38,372 bases of DNA from a virus, in the UHGV virus genome UHGV-0143060; one strand, written 5' to 3'. The notes beneath the pieces were generated by a model, which made no database searches, was not told where the DNA came from, and saw only the letters and a program-made list of their open reading frames with translations. This document shows positions 1 to 6,485 of this stretch, in pieces. Numbering within the stretch: position 1 is the stretch's first letter; every line of letters begins with the position of its first letter. Made by a program: the position numbers and the translations under genes.

Positions 1-1128
1 CCATTTGTAAGCGTGGATTTTGTACCTCGTAATAATTGGTTCTATTTTAACATAAAAGCTAATACTAAAAAAGAAAGCCTTTTATCTTCTACTGATTTAA
101 CAACAGCTTTGTTGGCGGCTTTTACTAAAATAACAACTGTAGTTAATGAGATTAACCATTTTTGCCCATTAGATGTGTCAGTTGTTATCCCTGTTCATAA
201 TCGTGAAAAACTTATTCTTAAATGCATTAACTCACTTAATAACCAAACAATTAATAAGGATCGCTTTGAGGTTATTTTTGTCGATGATTGTTCAAGTGAC
301 AAAAGCATTACTGCTATAGAATATAATATATCACCGGATATTAACTACAGAATTATTCGCCGAGAAATTGGTTCAGGTAACGCTTCAACCCCGAGAAATG
401 AGGGGATAAAAGCAGCAAAAGGACGTTATATTTTCTTCATGGATTCCGATGACTATATTGACGAAACTCTTCTTGAGAGAGGGGTTCATATTGCTGATAA
501 AAATAATAGTGATATTGTTTACTTCAAAATTGCATCAGATGGTAATCGCGAGGTGCCTATCCGTCCATACAAGGTGAAAATTGTAGATAAGGCAGATATA
601 ACCAAGCATCACCTCTTGCGGTCGTTAACTATTTTCAAATTCTTCCGAAGAAATATGCTTAAAGAGCATAACATTCTCTTCAACCCAGCTATCACCGTAG
701 CTGAAGATAAAATATTTATGGTTCAATCTCTATCTGTAGCAAACAATATATCTATTCTTGCTGACAAAGATTATTATCATTTAACATTCCATGGTAATGG
801 TCATTTATCAAGGCAAAAATTTCCTCTTGAAGATAGACACTTCATTCTTAACTCGGTTATTAACACGATTTACTTTTGCGGAAAAACTAACGAAGAAAAG
901 GCCAAGCTTTACAATGCGTGGCTGGTGATATGCCTTGAAATGATGGAAAAGGTATGTGGTAAAGCAGGTGGCAACGAGCAAAAGAAAAGGATGTTCTTTA
1001 ACATGCTCTCAACCACTTTCAACATCCGCTCAGATTTAGTAAATCAGGATATGATTTATACCCCTCAGCGTAAGTTCATCAAACCTTTTTTACAAAATAA
1101 TTATGAAGGTTTTATAGCTGAAATTTAA
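1..1128 (+). CDS. Family 2 glycosyltransferase (cargo/moron); frame is open to the window edge so the 5' end may be incomplete
   Basis: GT2 signature VVIPVHNREKLILKCINSLNNQT...FEVIFVDDCSSDKS and DXD-like FFMDSDDYIDE; visibly AT-rich; no stop between position 1 and the GTG at 13; about 55 codons precede the GT2 core. Confidence 0.7.
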   Translation, partial: PFVSVDFVPRNNWFYFNIKANTKKESLLSSTDLTTALLAAFTKITTVVNEINHFCPLDVSVVIPVHNREKLILKCINSLNNQTINKDRFEVIFVDDCSSDKSITAIEYNISPDINYRIIRREIGSGNASTPRNEGIKAAKGRYIFFMDSDDYIDETLLERGVHIADKNNSDIVYFKIASDGNREVPIRPYKVKIVDKADITKHHLLRSLTIFKFFRRNMLKEHNILFNPAITVAEDKIFMVQSLSVANNISILADKDYYHLTFHGNGHLSRQKFPLEDRHFILNSVINTIYFCGKTNEEKAKLYNAWLVICLEMMEKVCGKAGGNEQKKRMFFNMLSTTFNIRSDLVNQDMIYTPQRKFIKPFLQNNYEGFIAEI

Positions 1129-1134
1129 AACATT

Positions 1135-1153
1135 GCCCAGCATGTAGCTGGGC
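1135..1153. terminator. Inverted-repeat hairpin between convergent GT2 gene and tailspike (possible bidirectional terminator, weak T-tracts)
   Basis: GCCCAGC-ATGTA-GCTGGGC perfect 7-bp stem seen in sequence. Confidence 0.35.
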
Positions 1154-1174
1154 ATACATTAAAAGTACCACATA

Positions 1175-3820
1175 TCAACCATTTAGTGTTAACTTTAATA
1201 ATTTTTCCAGATTATTAATCTTTGATGTGATATTGGCAATATCCTGCTCATGGTGATGATATAATGCGCTCATTGCCAGAAACATTAACTCGTCATAGCG
1301 CACTGATAATTTTCTTCCTGATTCCACAATTAACCTTACTTCACCAGTTTCATACTCTTCTTCCTCTGTGATTTCATCATACTGACCAGACTCTTCATCA
1401 ATTAAAATTTTTCTGGTCACATTTCTTGTTGCATAGACTTTCTCATACTCATCATCCCACTCTTCATAGCAAAGAACCCCATAAGAAAATGCATCAAGCC
1501 CCTCAGATTCAAAGATGGATTGTATATCTTGCGCAATTACACCGATATGCTCACGCGCTGACAAGCCTTTTTCTTTTACAGCATCCTTCATTCTGAATTT
1601 TTTTATCAGCGGGTAAATAGCCATTCCAACCCGTAGTTCTGCATCAGATAATGAAGCTTCATCCTGCTTGTAATTTCTGTCGCTGGTTACAATGGGGCTA
1701 TTATTTATATACAGGTTTCTGACAGTATTCGACTGTGTACCAATATCATAAAGATTTGAACCTGATGGTCGAAAATGACCTAATTCTGTTAATACCCATC
1801 TGTCACGCAAGCCGTCAATCTCTCCCATGGTTCCAAAGTAGAAAGCAACCGGGATATTGTCTCCGGAAGGATTACCTCTTGTGACGCATTTAATGTGTGC
1901 GCATTGCACAGCCTTACTACCTGTATCACCGGCCCATACATGAGTACCCAATACATCCCCTGTCTGCAGAGCTCCAAAATTATCAGTTGATACAACACCA
2001 GAGCGAGACTTATACATTATTGCTCTTGGTCCTTCTGCGGTGTCTGACTGATGCCGGGAAACCCATGAGTTGCTCATCCCTTCCGTGCCGTTTGAAGCTA
2101 ACTGCATTCCACCAGTAATTCCGCCATCAAGAAACAATATAGGGTTATCCCGGTTAGTTTGAATACCCTTTCTTGTTGGCCAAACTGTCCAGTGAAAAGT
2201 ATCATTGTATTCCCTTACTCCATATTTGAACTCCGGGGAGCCAGAACTATGAAGACCAGTATTACTGGATACAGAACGGCTTGCTTTGCTTTGCACTACC
2301 GAACCAGACCTGCCTATATCAAACAGATATACATTTTTCCCGTTCTCAGCAACTCCTTTATATGTGCATATTCCCAGCGTTAAAACATACCCACTCTCCG
2401 TTCTAATTACTGTTAGGGACTCAGGCTCTTTATAAACAGGAGTTCCTGTACTGTCAGATTTTGCTTCATCATCACCAACAGTTGAAATATCTACTCGCTC
2501 AATAAACCTGCCTGTTAAGTCAAATACGTAAATATAATTAGTCATGCCAACATACGTATGTGACTCAAGTATGTAAATGTATGCCCCATCGCAAGCAATT
2601 GATTGGGTAAATGCTTCTTGTGATGGTTTTTGATAGCTAAACTCAACTAAATAATCATCACTATAATCAGTTTTATGAGATCTGTTATTCCACATGCTGA
2701 CTATGTCGAAAACACGAACCGTGCAGGTAATTCCATCCGATGAAATTTTCTTGGCAAGTAGATAGTTTTCACAACTTGATACAGTTGGAGTAGAGCTTGC
2801 GCTCATTCCATCATAGGGGAACAACTTCCAGGTGATAAAACCTTCAGATACCCCGTTGGTTGTCCCTGTGTAACTCAATATATTTTCCATCGAAATACAT
2901 TGATTGGCGGCATCGGTTCCATAAGGCTTCGATGTCCACAGCACGACAGTACCATCAGGATTATGATGCAATCCAAGCCCCTGATGCCCAAGTTCAGTAG
3001 AACGGGTTCTGTCGTATCTTCCTAGTTCACCAGAATTCGTCACGTCAAAGGCATTAATGCAATAACCGTATGCTGTGGTAGATGATAAAGTAAAAATCTT
3101 GTCGTTAATTTCATCATAACAACACCCCTGAATGACCGCATATAAACCACCCGCACCTTCAGTTCTGCGCAACGTGTGTCTGGTGTTATATACTTTTGGC
3201 ATTCCGGAAAATATCAATGGCTCTCTTTTATCTCTTAATTTAAGATCACCAATCGCAATTCGTTTACTGCCATCACGAATAAAAGAACCATTTATATAGC
3301 TATTTTCAATAAAACTTTTAGTAACAAAAAATGCTCTTCCACTTAAATCAATAACCCTATTTTTTATATCCATTTCCAACGCGACAAATGCTTCAGTATC
3401 ATCGCTAATCCCATCCCCCTTAGCTCCAAAATAAAGAGGAGACATATTTAGCATATCATTTGATAATACTTTTTGTTTAAACTGATCCGGGTCATACTTC
3501 AGCACATTAGGAAAATAGAACTGCTGTGCACCATACGCATCATAAACAGCCATAGAATGGCCTTGCACGGTAACGAATTTGGCAATCTGTCCGTTATATA
3601 CTGGATACCCTGCGGCATTGATGACGATTGGCTGTGCAACATGAACGTGAGAACCATCTTCGTTCTCTACATAAACCTGAATCTGGTTTTCAGGATTTAC
3701 CGGGTCAGTGTCAATTTTACCGATATAAATTTTGCCATTGGCTACGGCTTTAAAAGAGCGGGCCATAGTGAAGAGTTGCGAAGGCATACTCACTACAACA
3801 TTGGCTGTAATGTCTGTCAT
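1175..3820 (-). CDS. Tailspike: P22 gp9-like head-binding N-terminus, beta-helix/pectate-lyase-like receptor-degrading body, C-terminal S74-type intramolecular chaperone domain
   Basis: First ~110 aa ([34 protein letters not shown]...) match P22 gp9 as recalled; [16 protein letters not shown] motif; C-terminal SDAELR...GVIAQDIQ resembles endosialidase-type chaperone domains. Confidence 0.85.
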
Positions 3821-3877: not shown

Positions 3878-3902
3878 TAAAAAAACCCAGCCGAAGCTGG
3901 GT
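3878..3902 (-). terminator. Rho-independent terminator downstream of ant
   Basis: ACCCAGC-CGAA-GCTGGGT hairpin followed by a T-run on the minus strand. Confidence 0.6.
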
Positions 3903-3920
3903 CGTTGCGTTGGTTATCTG

Positions 3921-5395: not shown

Positions 5396-5410
5396 CGGTG
5401 GGTTTTATTA
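5380..5410. terminator. Bidirectional rho-independent terminator (mnt on +, moron operon on -)
   Basis: ACCCACC-TGAC-GGTGGGT hairpin flanked by an A-run upstream and a T-run downstream. Confidence 0.65.
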
Positions 5411-5827
5411 GTGCTTGTATAGGTTGAACTCTCTATCAAGCCATATAACAAAAAATGTCGATCCAAGACGATAACCAACCATGGCTTTCAAATCATCAAA
5501 TCTAAAAGCCAAGAAATGATCTACGTCTTCCGTTATATGACTGGGGATACCTGCTTTAATTGCACCCCTTGCAATCTTCTCAAATCCAAGCTTATGCCTA
5601 CCTTGCTGCTTAATCTCTGCCCATGTTAGTTGACTTAATCTGTATAATTTATCAGCTAAGCCAGCTTTCTCATCTTTTTGGCATTTCGTTATGCAGTGAG
5701 AGCTTTGGATGTAACAGAATGAAAATTTCGGTTTCTTTTGATCTGAATTCCCCCCTGACTGCGGCCCTAACTTTAACTTACCTGTAGATTCAGCAGGGGG
5801 GATAATCCTTTTAGATTTTCTTGCCAT
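5408..5827 (-). CDS. Uncharacterised 139-aa protein coupled to the Panacea-domain gene; candidate toxin partner (PanT-like)
   Basis: ATG at 5827 lies 4 nt after the upstream stop; K/R-rich N-terminus, CYIQSSHCITKC cluster, C-terminus GYRLGSTFFVIWLDREFNLYKH; AT-rich. The tabulated ORF begins at 5902 and would overlap the upstream gene. Confidence 0.55.
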   Translation of the reverse strand: MARKSKRIIPPAESTGKLKLGPQSGGNSDQKKPKFSFCYIQSSHCITKCQKDEKAGLADKLYRLSQLTWAEIKQQGRHKLGFEKIARGAIKAGIPSHITEDVDHFLAFRFDDLKAMVGYRLGSTFFVIWLDREFNLYKH

Positions 5828-5831
5828 CTCG

Positions 5832-6275
5832 TTAGTTAATCCGAGTTGCAAAGTACTCTGCCATCTCCTTAGAGCTAATTTCAGAACCACCAACACCCTC
5901 AATATAGTTTGATCTCCATGGTGACTCTTCGTGTGTCATGTTCCTCAGTTTCCAAGCAGAAAATTGCCCAAAAACATCCCAGACTTCTTCTAATAGCTCT
6001 AACTGTTCTTCGCTGAATTTTTCAGCATCAAAAGACTCTGGAGAAGGGATAGCGCCATTACCATATTGTTTATAACGGCGATAAAGCTCAGGGACAACAG
6101 GGCCATGCATCCAAGCTTCCATCTTATTCTGAAAAAGAGGCTCGCCAAGCAACGCCAATGAAAAACCCTGAGCATAGTAAACAAGCTTTTGTAATTTTAA
6201 ATTAGAGATTGTGTCACCGCTATCCTCGTCACACCGCGACAGGAAGTAGTCGGCGACATCAAAACAAGTAAGCAT
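5832..6275 (-). CDS. Panacea-domain (DUF4065, SocA/PanA-like) protein, putative antitoxin
   Basis: DVADYFL...NLKLQKLVYYAQGFSLALLGEPLFQNKMEAWMHGPVVPELYRRY matches the Panacea core as recalled; GGAGG RBS 7 nt before the ATG at 6275. Confidence 0.7.
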   Translation of the reverse strand: MLTCFDVADYFLSRCDEDSGDTISNLKLQKLVYYAQGFSLALLGEPLFQNKMEAWMHGPVVPELYRRYKQYGNGAIPSPESFDAEKFSEEQLELLEEVWDVFGQFSAWKLRNMTHEESPWRSNYIEGVGGSEISSKEMAEYFATRIN

Positions 6276-6485
6276 GAACACACCTCCATCTTGATAGCCA
6301 CAGCTAAGTATCCAACTATGTCAAATGTCATTTAATACTATAACAAAGCTATCAGCAATCCTTCGGAGGCTAACTTACAACCACTTTAGCGACATGTTTA
6401 AACCATTACGTTTCACATTTACTGCATTTTCGCCGAAGTTACCTATAAGGTAATGTCACATTTCCTGCAAGTTTCATGCAATGTT

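What the first reader, a model, noticed from the sequence alone, without database searches (positions are those of the whole stretch)
1175..3820. Chimeric tailspike: P22 head-binding N-terminus, beta-helix body and C-terminal S74-type chaperone domain
The first ~110 aa look like the P22 gp9 head-binding domain, but the rest is unrelated to the P22 endorhamnosidase: a [16 protein letters not shown] motif typical of pectate-lyase-like beta-helix depolymerases, and a C-terminal SDAELR...GVIAQDIQ segment resembling the self-cleaving chaperone domain of endosialidases and T5 L-shaped fibres. This implies a receptor specificity different from P22 and a tailspike matured by autoproteolysis, unusual in a P22-like virion.
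Basis: partly seen in the sequence, partly recalled or inferred. Interest (0 to 1): 0.55.

Follow-up and report, generated by a model that had tools for sequence, protein, structure and literature searches.

The report
P22-type tailspike with propeller body
This is an intact tailspike gene of a P22-like E. coli prophage whose receptor-binding body is a five-bladed beta-propeller (not a beta-helix) followed by a self-cleaving folding chaperone, a shuffled set of known phage modules built on the same plan as the CUS-3 endosialidase tailspike, so it is a fairly ordinary find.

Summary
The ORF at 1175..3820 (minus strand, 881 aa) is real. The N-terminus is a P22 gp9 head-binding domain (Pfam PF09008, residues 1-113, E 3e-66). 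The C-terminus is a Peptidase_S74 intramolecular chaperone (PF13884, residues 713-774, 33 bits against a cut-off of 22).

The GAKGDG..DDT motif belongs to a cap of about 55 residues. That cap is shared by endosialidases and beta-helix spikes alike, so it cannot tell the two folds apart.

Predicted products are a 78.4 kDa spike and a 19.6 kDa chaperone.

Autoproteolytic maturation in a P22-like virion has a precedent. CUS-3 shares about 95% DNA identity with this prophage's backbone, and its tailspike has the same module order.

The same body also sits on an epsilon15-type anchor in other E. coli prophages. A low-GC glycosyltransferase gene travels with the tailspike.

Verdict: new member of a known kind. 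The biochemistry is untested.

The parts
1175..3820 (-). Complete tailspike ORF, 881 aa (97.9 kDa precursor), ATG start, stop at 1175-1177
   Evidence: The exact protein is in NCBI as 'phage tailspike protein [Escherichia coli]', seen on 23 contigs.
3482..3820 (-). P22 gp9-type head-binding (virion anchor) domain, residues 1-113
   Evidence: Pfam PF09008 E 3.1e-66. PDB matches to Sf6 gp14 and P22 gp9. DNA similarity to CUS-3, HK620, Sf101 and other relatives ends at window position 3476-3483. Most E. coli genomes match only gene nucleotides 1-338.
3440..3481 (-). Linker and module junction, residues 114-127, immediately after the conserved NVLKYDPDQ
   Evidence: Break in similarity. Low model confidence.
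3275..3439 (-). Cap segment carrying [11 protein letters not shown], residues 128-182; resembles the endosialidase N-terminal extension
   Evidence: Pfam End_N_terminal is sub-threshold in this protein (E 0.03) but hits 13 of 16 family members. The family profile hits endoNF at 2.5e-7, and only the first rungs of beta-helix spikes such as Dpo31.
2315..3190 (-). Five-bladed beta-propeller, residues 211-502, the presumed receptor-binding (possibly catalytic) module. Conserved polar residues: Q231, H279, Q280, W295, S348, R369, D385, D411, E465, E467
1685..2314 (-). Beta-rich stalk, residues 503-712. Poorly modelled as a monomer. The last ~100 residues resemble the pre-cleavage region of T5 pb1 and other S74 fibres
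   Evidence: pLDDT below 50 for residues 513-598. PDB alignments: 4uw8 covers 613-791, 7y5s covers 590-800. Relatives give weak End_tail_spike hits.
1667..1684 (-). Predicted autocleavage motif S713-D-R-N-Y-K718, the Ser-Lys dyad; scissile bond T712|S713
   Evidence: Aligns with the first residues SDERHK of the released GA-1 chaperone (3gud), and with the Ala residues that lie at this position in the endoNF (3gw6) and T5 pb1 (4uw8) constructs. Ser and Lys are conserved in 13 of 14 S74-bearing family members.
1178..1684 (-). S74 intramolecular chaperone domain, residues 713-881 (19.6 kDa), predicted to be released after trimer folding
   Evidence: Pfam PF13884, 33 bits against a cut-off of 22. 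PDB sequence matches. Foldseek hits to 4uw8 and 3gw6. Masses.
1134..1154 (-). Terminator-like hairpin between the convergent tailspike and glycosyltransferase genes
   Evidence: consensus scan only
13..1128 (+). Linked family-2 glycosyltransferase gene, GC 34%, convergent with the tailspike; candidate receptor-modifying conversion gene
   Evidence: Pfam PF00535 E 2.9e-31. Adjacent to this tailspike in GMF054, strain C and CUVM3 despite different flanks. Same position as neuO in CUS-3.

Best explanation
This is the tailspike (receptor-binding protein) of a CUS-3/HK620-like P22-type prophage of E. coli, assembled from five modules. (1) Residues 1-113 dock the trimer onto the P22-type tail. (2) Residues 128-182 form a short cap like the one that precedes the propeller in endosialidases. 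(3) Residues ~211-502 form a five-bladed beta-propeller, homologous to the 'platform' domain of the Staphylococcus phage phi11, 80alpha and P68 receptor-binding proteins. It most likely engages a host surface glycan in its central cavity; this step is inferred. (4) Residues 503-712 form a trimeric stalk. (5) Residues 713-881 are an S74 intramolecular chaperone. By analogy with endoNF, T5 pb1 and GA-1 gp12, it drives folding of the trimeric stalk and then cuts itself off between T712 and S713 using the S713/K718 dyad. That would leave a 78.4 kDa mature spike and a 19.6 kDa fragment. Shown here: domain identities, fold, conserved dyad and module boundaries. Inferred: actual cleavage, the receptor, and whether the propeller only binds or also processes the glycan.
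For: Domain assignments. Propeller fold. Sequence-profile homology to P68, phi11, 80alpha and NF5. PF21311 is found in 7 of 16 close and 46 of 60 distant relatives, often together with End_N_terminal and S74. The strand count (5 x 4) and the lone N-terminal strand 211-217 fit the 1+3 closure described for P68 and phi11 (PMC6795507, PMC4901313). Dyad alignment and conservation. Same module order as the CUS-3 tailspike. Backbone about 95% identical to CUS-3 and phiv205-1, with the break at residue ~113. The GA-1 neck appendage protein is the best viral structural match for cap plus propeller (E 2.4e-16, TM 0.62), and its S74 domain also aligns.
Against: The window protein's own Pfam score for PF21311 is below the curated cut-off (15.7 against 23.7 bits), so membership rests on profiles and fold. 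The stalk is poorly modelled. No trimer model was possible. No cleavage, binding or enzymatic data exist for this protein or any close homologue that I could find. The receptor is unknown; only one host serotype was recovered (O23:H16 for CPww7).
Confidence: 0.82

Rival explanations
1. One reading: the body is a pectate-lyase-like right-handed beta-helix depolymerase, as in P22, Sf6 and HK620 spikes, with an S74 chaperone attached.
For: The GAKGDG..DDT motif at residues 130-145 does occur at the N-terminal edge of beta-helix proteins. The family profile hits Dpo31 (5e-12), phiAB6 tailspike, phi29 gp12 and polygalacturonases, but only over profile positions ~2-67. One of 16 family members gives a weak PF12708 hit (E 0.0019).
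Confidence: 0.03
2. The propeller is an enzyme (a glycanase, esterase or similar acting on O-antigen or capsule) and not a pure lectin-like binder. Its catalytic centre would be the conserved ring H279/D411/E465/E467 at the mouth of the central channel.
For: Residues Q231, H279, Q280, S348, R369, D385, D411, E465 and E467 are kept in at least 55 of 60 relatives sharing under 30% identity. That is more than receptor contacts for diverse glycans would need. Several of them (Q231, H279/Q280, Q406, E465/E467) sit at or just before the start of an innermost strand; S348 and D411 sit at the ends of theirs (inference). After the phage proteins and two non-glycosidase families (YjiK, glutaminyl cyclase), the structural neighbours are mostly five-bladed glycoside hydrolases GH159/32/43/62/68. 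From general knowledge, characterised P22-like tailspikes process their glycan receptor.
Confidence: 0.35
3. The S74 domain is present but is not cleaved off; it is retained as a C-terminal distal domain on the virion.
For: Cleavage was not tested. One family member (P0003, Leclercia) has Cys instead of Ser at the nucleophile position, which shows that the site can vary.
Against: Ser713 and Lys718 are both present at the aligned catalytic positions, and the downstream HxGxIAQ motif is intact. All characterised S74 domains with this dyad self-cleave (general knowledge: endoNF, T5 pb1, GA-1 gp12).
Confidence: 0.08

Closest known systems
CUS-3 endosialidase tailspike (siaK1; E. coli K1 P22-like prophage)
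   Same: Same virion type, with backbone DNA about 95% identical. Same module order: Head_binding 1-113, End_N_terminal cap, propeller, stalk, Peptidase_S74. 66% identity over residues 1-195 and 25% over the S74 region, including an S-D-x-x-x-K motif. A receptor-modifying gene follows the tailspike (neuO there, GT2 here).
   Different: CUS-3 has the six-bladed GH58 sialidase propeller with a beta-barrel insert (PF12217/PF12195) and the End_tail_spike stalk. This protein has a five-bladed PF21311-type propeller and an unrelated stalk, with no match to PF12217.
Staphylococcus phage phi11 Gp45, 80alpha gp61, P68 tail fibre and NF5 Gp17 (five-bladed 'platform' receptor-binding proteins, Pfam PF21311)
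   Different: Those proteins have a coiled-coil stem in front of the propeller, 'tower' domains behind it, and no S74. They belong to Gram-positive sipho- and podoviruses and bind GlcNAc-teichoic acid (PMC4901313, PMC6795507). About 12-14% identity.
Bacillus phage GA-1 neck appendage protein (gp12)
   Same: Best viral structural match to cap plus propeller (Foldseek E 2.4e-16, TMq 0.62, 334 columns). Its crystallised S74 chaperone (3gud) aligns with residues 713-797, starting exactly at S713. So the cap, propeller and S74 chaperone of this body have a studied podovirus precedent.
   Different: Different N-terminal anchor (phi29-like neck) and a Gram-positive host. 19% identity. Only its C-terminal domain has an experimental structure.
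Escherichia phage Gally and vB_EcoP-683R2 tailspikes (Lederbergvirus isolates)
   Same: P22 head-binding domain plus a distantly related propeller: 38-40% identity over residues 1-569 and 1-471, dominated by the N-terminus. Weak PF21311 hit.
   Different: No S74 domain in Gally. Different C-terminal region. Uncharacterised.
P22 gp9, Sf6 gp14 and HK620 gp9 beta-helix tailspikes
   Same: Head-binding domain (92% identity to Sf6 and 91% to HK620 over ~115-120 residues) and the same genomic position after ant/mnt/arc.
   Different: Their bodies are right-handed beta-helices with endoglycosidase sites and no released chaperone. No similarity beyond about residue 120.

Membership tests
P22 tailspike head-binding domain (Pfam PF09008) | Full-length match to the 113-residue profile above the curated cut-off | tested here: met
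   221.1 bits against a cut-off of 24, residues 1-113 on profile 1-113. Aligns to 1lkt, 2vky and 7sg7.
Peptidase_S74 intramolecular chaperone (Pfam PF13884 / MEROPS S74) | Profile match above the curated cut-off | tested here: met
   33 bits against a cut-off of 22, residues 713-774. PDB homologues 6eu4, 4uw8, 3gud, 9vvr and 3gw6.
Peptidase_S74 intramolecular chaperone (Pfam PF13884 / MEROPS S74) | Ser nucleophile and Lys five residues downstream (S-x-x-x-x-K) at the start of the domain | tested here: met
   S713...K718 aligns with SDERHK at the N-terminus of the released GA-1 domain, and with the Ala residues at this position in 3gw6 and 4uw8. Conserved in 13 of 14 relatives.
Peptidase_S74 intramolecular chaperone (Pfam PF13884 / MEROPS S74) | Actual autocatalytic release of the domain after trimerisation | not testable with these tools
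   Needs expression and SDS-PAGE or mass spectrometry. Predicted products are 78.4 and 19.6 kDa.
Phage five-bladed propeller receptor-binding platform (Pfam PF21311) | Pfam match above the curated cut-off for this protein itself | tested here: not met
   15.7 bits against a cut-off of 23.7, E 0.012, residues 229-471.
Phage five-bladed propeller receptor-binding platform (Pfam PF21311) | Homology to solved members by profile, and to the family through relatives | tested here: met
   Profile A5 against PDB: P68 9.3e-14, phi11 3.8e-10 over the whole propeller, 80alpha 1.2e-9, NF5 4.5e-9. PF21311 is hit by 7 of 16 close relatives (best 2.9e-12) and 46 of 60 distant relatives.
Phage five-bladed propeller receptor-binding platform (Pfam PF21311) | Five blades of four antiparallel strands | tested here: met
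Pectate-lyase-like right-handed beta-helix depolymerase (PF12708 / Pectate_lyase_3) | Profile match over a multi-rung beta-helix domain, or a predicted solenoid fold | tested here: not met
   No hit at E <= 1. Only the ~20-65 residue cap motif matches beta-helix proteins. The fold is a propeller.
Endosialidase (GH58: PF12217 propeller, PF12195 barrel, PF12219 stalk) | Six-bladed sialidase propeller with beta-barrel insert | tested here: not met
   No PF12217 or PF12195 hit, whereas CUS-3 scores 775 bits. Five blades, not six.
Endosialidase N-terminal extension (PF12218) | Profile match to the ~67-residue cap preceding the propeller | tested here: inconclusive
   This protein scores 14.5 bits against a cut-off of 26.3. 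However, 13 of 16 relatives hit (best 2.8e-08), and the family profile hits endoNF at 2.5e-7 and phi92 endosialidase at 4e-5.

The most novel reading that the evidence does not exclude
The strongly conserved polar ring (Q231, H279/Q280, S348, D411, E465/E467), inferred to lie around the propeller's central channel, is shared from Staphylococcus phages to this E. coli prophage. It could be an unrecognised catalytic centre. The widespread PF21311 'platform' receptor-binding proteins would then be glycan-processing enzymes rather than lectins. This P22-type spike, in a virion class whose characterised spikes are usually enzymes and with an adjacent glycosyltransferase that may mask the receptor, would be a tractable system in which to show it.
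Probability: 0.25. Interest if true: 0.6.

Novelty: new member of a known kind. Interest (0 to 1): 0.3.

Why it matters
The result corrects a plausible-looking but wrong fold call. The GDG..DDT motif alone does not indicate a beta-helix.

It also documents that the five-bladed "platform" propeller, known structurally only from Gram-positive phages, is a common receptor-binding body in phages of enterobacteria. It is often paired with an endosialidase-type cap and an S74 chaperone.

The same body is nearly identical on P22-type and epsilon15-type anchors. That is a clear example of tailspike module exchange between temperate podovirus genera, and it is useful for host-range prediction and tailspike engineering.

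The linked glycosyltransferase suggests a tailspike plus receptor-modification cassette that could be tested on O23 or related E. coli. None of this changes current understanding of tailspike biology.

Tried and rejected
1. Beta-helix reading: rejected.

2. Endosialidase activity: rejected. There is no PF12217/PF12195 match and the propeller has five blades.

3. First homologue search with the body: it gave only 17 proteins and suggested a tiny family. The index-free profile search gave 1,081 clusters, so the apparent rarity came from the word-based search.

4. Census of head-binding + S74 proteins with a fused N+C query: it returned only proteins of 570 aa or shorter, so long spikes such as this one and CUS-3 were missed. 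It gives a lower bound only (three extra lineages, confirmed).

5. Literature searches for a characterised Gram-negative five-bladed-propeller tailspike: nothing found. Casjens & Grose 2016 (PMC4969182) is not held.

6. Dpo31 (top PDB profile hit): it is a beta-helix spike that matches only the cap.

Its anchor was identified by tblastn instead.

8. Host serotypes: only CPww7 (O23:H16) could be recovered. No conclusion about the receptor.

9. Mapping conserved residues onto three dimensions: not possible, because model coordinates are not returned. Positions were inferred from strand order.

Full report
**Observation.** The window holds an uninterrupted 881-codon ORF at 1175..3820 on the minus strand. 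None of the assignments below rests on chance-level scores. Pfam Head_binding covers residues 1-113 with E 3.1e-66, and Peptidase_S74 covers 713-774 at 33 bits against a curated cut-off of 22. The N-terminus aligns to the solved Sf6 and P22 tailspike N-domains (E 3e-64 to 1e-44) with nothing significant after about residue 120. The C-terminus aligns to S74-bearing structures: 6eu4, T5 pb1 4uw8, GA-1 3gud and endoNF 3gw6.

**Context.** The gene follows an antirepressor gene (P22_AR domains) and arc and mnt genes, which is the P22 immI arrangement. About 60-70% of window positions 3480-25000 is roughly 95% identical in DNA to phiv205-1 and CUS-3, with lower coverage for HK620, Kapi1 and others. 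In every case the similarity stops at window position 3476-3483, which is tailspike residue ~113. Among 5,426 complete E. coli genomes, 1,147 match the gene. All but four match only part of it, and the listed examples cover just the first ~338 nucleotides. Only four genomes carry the whole gene, at 97.5-99.4% identity. The exact protein is already deposited as "phage tailspike protein [Escherichia coli]" and has been seen on 23 contigs. So this is the receptor-binding gene of an ordinary P22-like (Lederbergvirus-type) E. coli prophage, with a swapped body.

**The body is a propeller, not a beta-helix.**
- No pectate-lyase or beta-helix family reaches E <= 1. The weak hints are Phage_RBD_prop, a five-bladed propeller (E 0.012), and End_N_terminal (E 0.03).
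- A full-length AlphaFold model is confident only for residues ~200-500. There it shows repeated four-strand units. Foldseek ranks the Staphylococcus phage 80alpha, phi11, NF5 and P68 receptor-binding proteins first, then S74 structures, then generic propellers.
- The 20 strands between residues 211 and 502 make five blades of four. The lone first strand is consistent with the 1+3 closure described for P68 and phi11.
- Homology is also visible in sequence. A profile of diverse family members finds the P68 tail fibre (E 9.3e-14), phi11 Gp45 over the whole propeller (3.8e-10), 80alpha (1.2e-9) and NF5 (4.5e-9).
- PF21311 is hit by 7 of 16 close relatives and 46 of 60 distant ones.

**Why the motif misled.** The GA.GDG..DDT segment is the start of a ~55-residue cap (residues 128-182). 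The family profile matches this segment in endosialidases (endoNF 2.5e-7, phi92 4e-5). It also matches the first rungs of beta-helix proteins: Dpo31 5e-12, phiAB6, phi29 gp12 and polygalacturonases. Dpo31 is indeed a beta-helix spike (PMC13317679). CUS-3's endosialidase carries WGAIGDGVHDDTSAL at the same place. The motif therefore does not discriminate between the two body types.

**The chaperone.** The Pfam S74 match starts at S713. In the PDB alignments, S713-D-R-N-Y-K718 lies on SDERHK, the first residues of the crystallised (released) GA-1 domain. It also lies on the Ala positions of the endoNF and T5 pb1 constructs, with Lys five residues downstream. From general knowledge those Ala residues are engineered replacements of the nucleophile Ser. 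Ser and Lys are conserved in 13 of 14 S74-bearing relatives; one Leclercia protein has Cys at the Ser position. Predicted products are 78.4 kDa (residues 1-712) and 19.6 kDa (residues 713-881). That S74 domains assist trimer folding and then self-cleave is established knowledge for endoNF, T5 pb1 and GA-1 gp12. It was not tested here.

**Precedents.**
- CUS-3's tailspike has Head_binding 1-113, End_N_terminal 146-212, End_beta_propel 213-662, End_tail_spike 663-817 and Peptidase_S74 818-878. That is the same order of modules on the same kind of virion. The review PMC5380687 already uses CUS-3 as the textbook case of module exchange among P22-like spikes.
- At least three other head-binding + S74 lineages of ~540 aa exist. 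P0015 is a further head-binding + cap + propeller + S74 protein at 27-30% identity.
- The best viral structural match to cap plus propeller is the GA-1 neck appendage protein (E 2.4e-16, TM 0.62), whose S74 domain is structure 3gud.
- The body module is not rare. An index-free profile search finds 1,081 clusters (50% identity level) at E <= 1e-3 and 143 at E <= 1e-30. They carry T7-type, G7C gp66-type, P22-type and other anchors.
- A 948-aa E. coli protein has the same body (96% identical overall, essentially identical from residue ~186) on an epsilon15/phiV10-type anchor.

**Mechanism.** The best-supported reading has four steps:
1. The head-binding domain anchors the trimer.
2. The three propellers bind a surface glycan in their central cavities, as proposed for phi11 (PMC4901313).
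3. The stalk trimerises with the help of the S74 domain.
4. The S74 domain then removes itself.

Whether the propeller also cleaves or modifies the glycan is open. Ten polar or aromatic residues (Q231, H279, Q280, W295, S348, R369, D385, D411, E465, E467) are kept in at least 55 of 60 relatives with under 30% identity. Several of them sit at or just before the start of the innermost strand of a blade. That placement suggests one conserved site at the channel mouth, though this is an inference from strand order. The same residues are conserved in P68 and phi11, for which only binding is described. A structural metal site is an equally good explanation. I put a catalytic role at about 0.35.

**Receptor.** Unknown. 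One carrier strain is O23:H16 (PMC10060365). A low-GC (34%) family-2 glycosyltransferase gene lies convergently downstream of the tailspike in this window. The same is true in three other genomes whose flanks otherwise differ. It occupies the position that neuO holds in CUS-3. This fits a tailspike plus receptor-modification cassette, but it is untested.

**Verdict.** The thing itself is a new, uncharacterised member of a known kind of modular tailspike. Interest is modest.

Noticed in passing
window 13..1128 (+): Family-2 glycosyltransferase gene (PF00535, E 2.9e-31), GC 34% against ~49% for the prophage, convergent with the tailspike. It is linked to this tailspike in GMF054, strain C and CUVM3 although the upstream genes and integration sites differ. 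It sits where neuO sits in CUS-3. Candidate lysogenic-conversion (receptor-masking) gene.
   Followed up: partly
So there seem to be two alternative recombination points.
   Followed up: partly
window 5832..6281 (-) and overlapping ORF 5408..5902 (-): A SocA/Panacea-domain antitoxin gene (PF13274, E 1.9e-24) is followed on the same strand by a 164-aa ORF with no Pfam match. This is a possible Panacea-type toxin-antitoxin pair inserted next to the immI region.
   Followed up: partly
P0003 (Leclercia sp. W6), aligned to window residue 713: This homologue has Cys instead of the Ser nucleophile (TCSREYK against TSDRNYK), with Ser at the next position. It could be a Cys-nucleophile variant, a shifted site or an inactive site.
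   Followed up: no
window 1134..1154 and 3884..3903 (- strand): GC-rich hairpins followed by T-runs flank the tailspike gene. One lies after its stop, shared with the convergent GT2 gene. One lies between ant and the tailspike start. They look like terminators, but this comes from a consensus scan only.
   Followed up: no
window 1178..3481 against 3482..3820: GC content drops across the module junction: head-binding 44%, linker plus cap 31%, propeller 40%, stalk 45%, S74 domain 37%, against 49% for the rest of the prophage. This is consistent with the body and the GT2 gene having a foreign, lower-GC origin.
   Followed up: partly
L001 (E. coli GMF054, NZ_CM183924.1 2921358-2940003): In GMF054 the tailspike-GT2 cassette survives in a decayed prophage remnant between torS and torT. 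The remnant has a truncated integrase, an IS911 element and a truncated gp17-like ejection gene. So the cassette persists after the phage has died.
   Followed up: no
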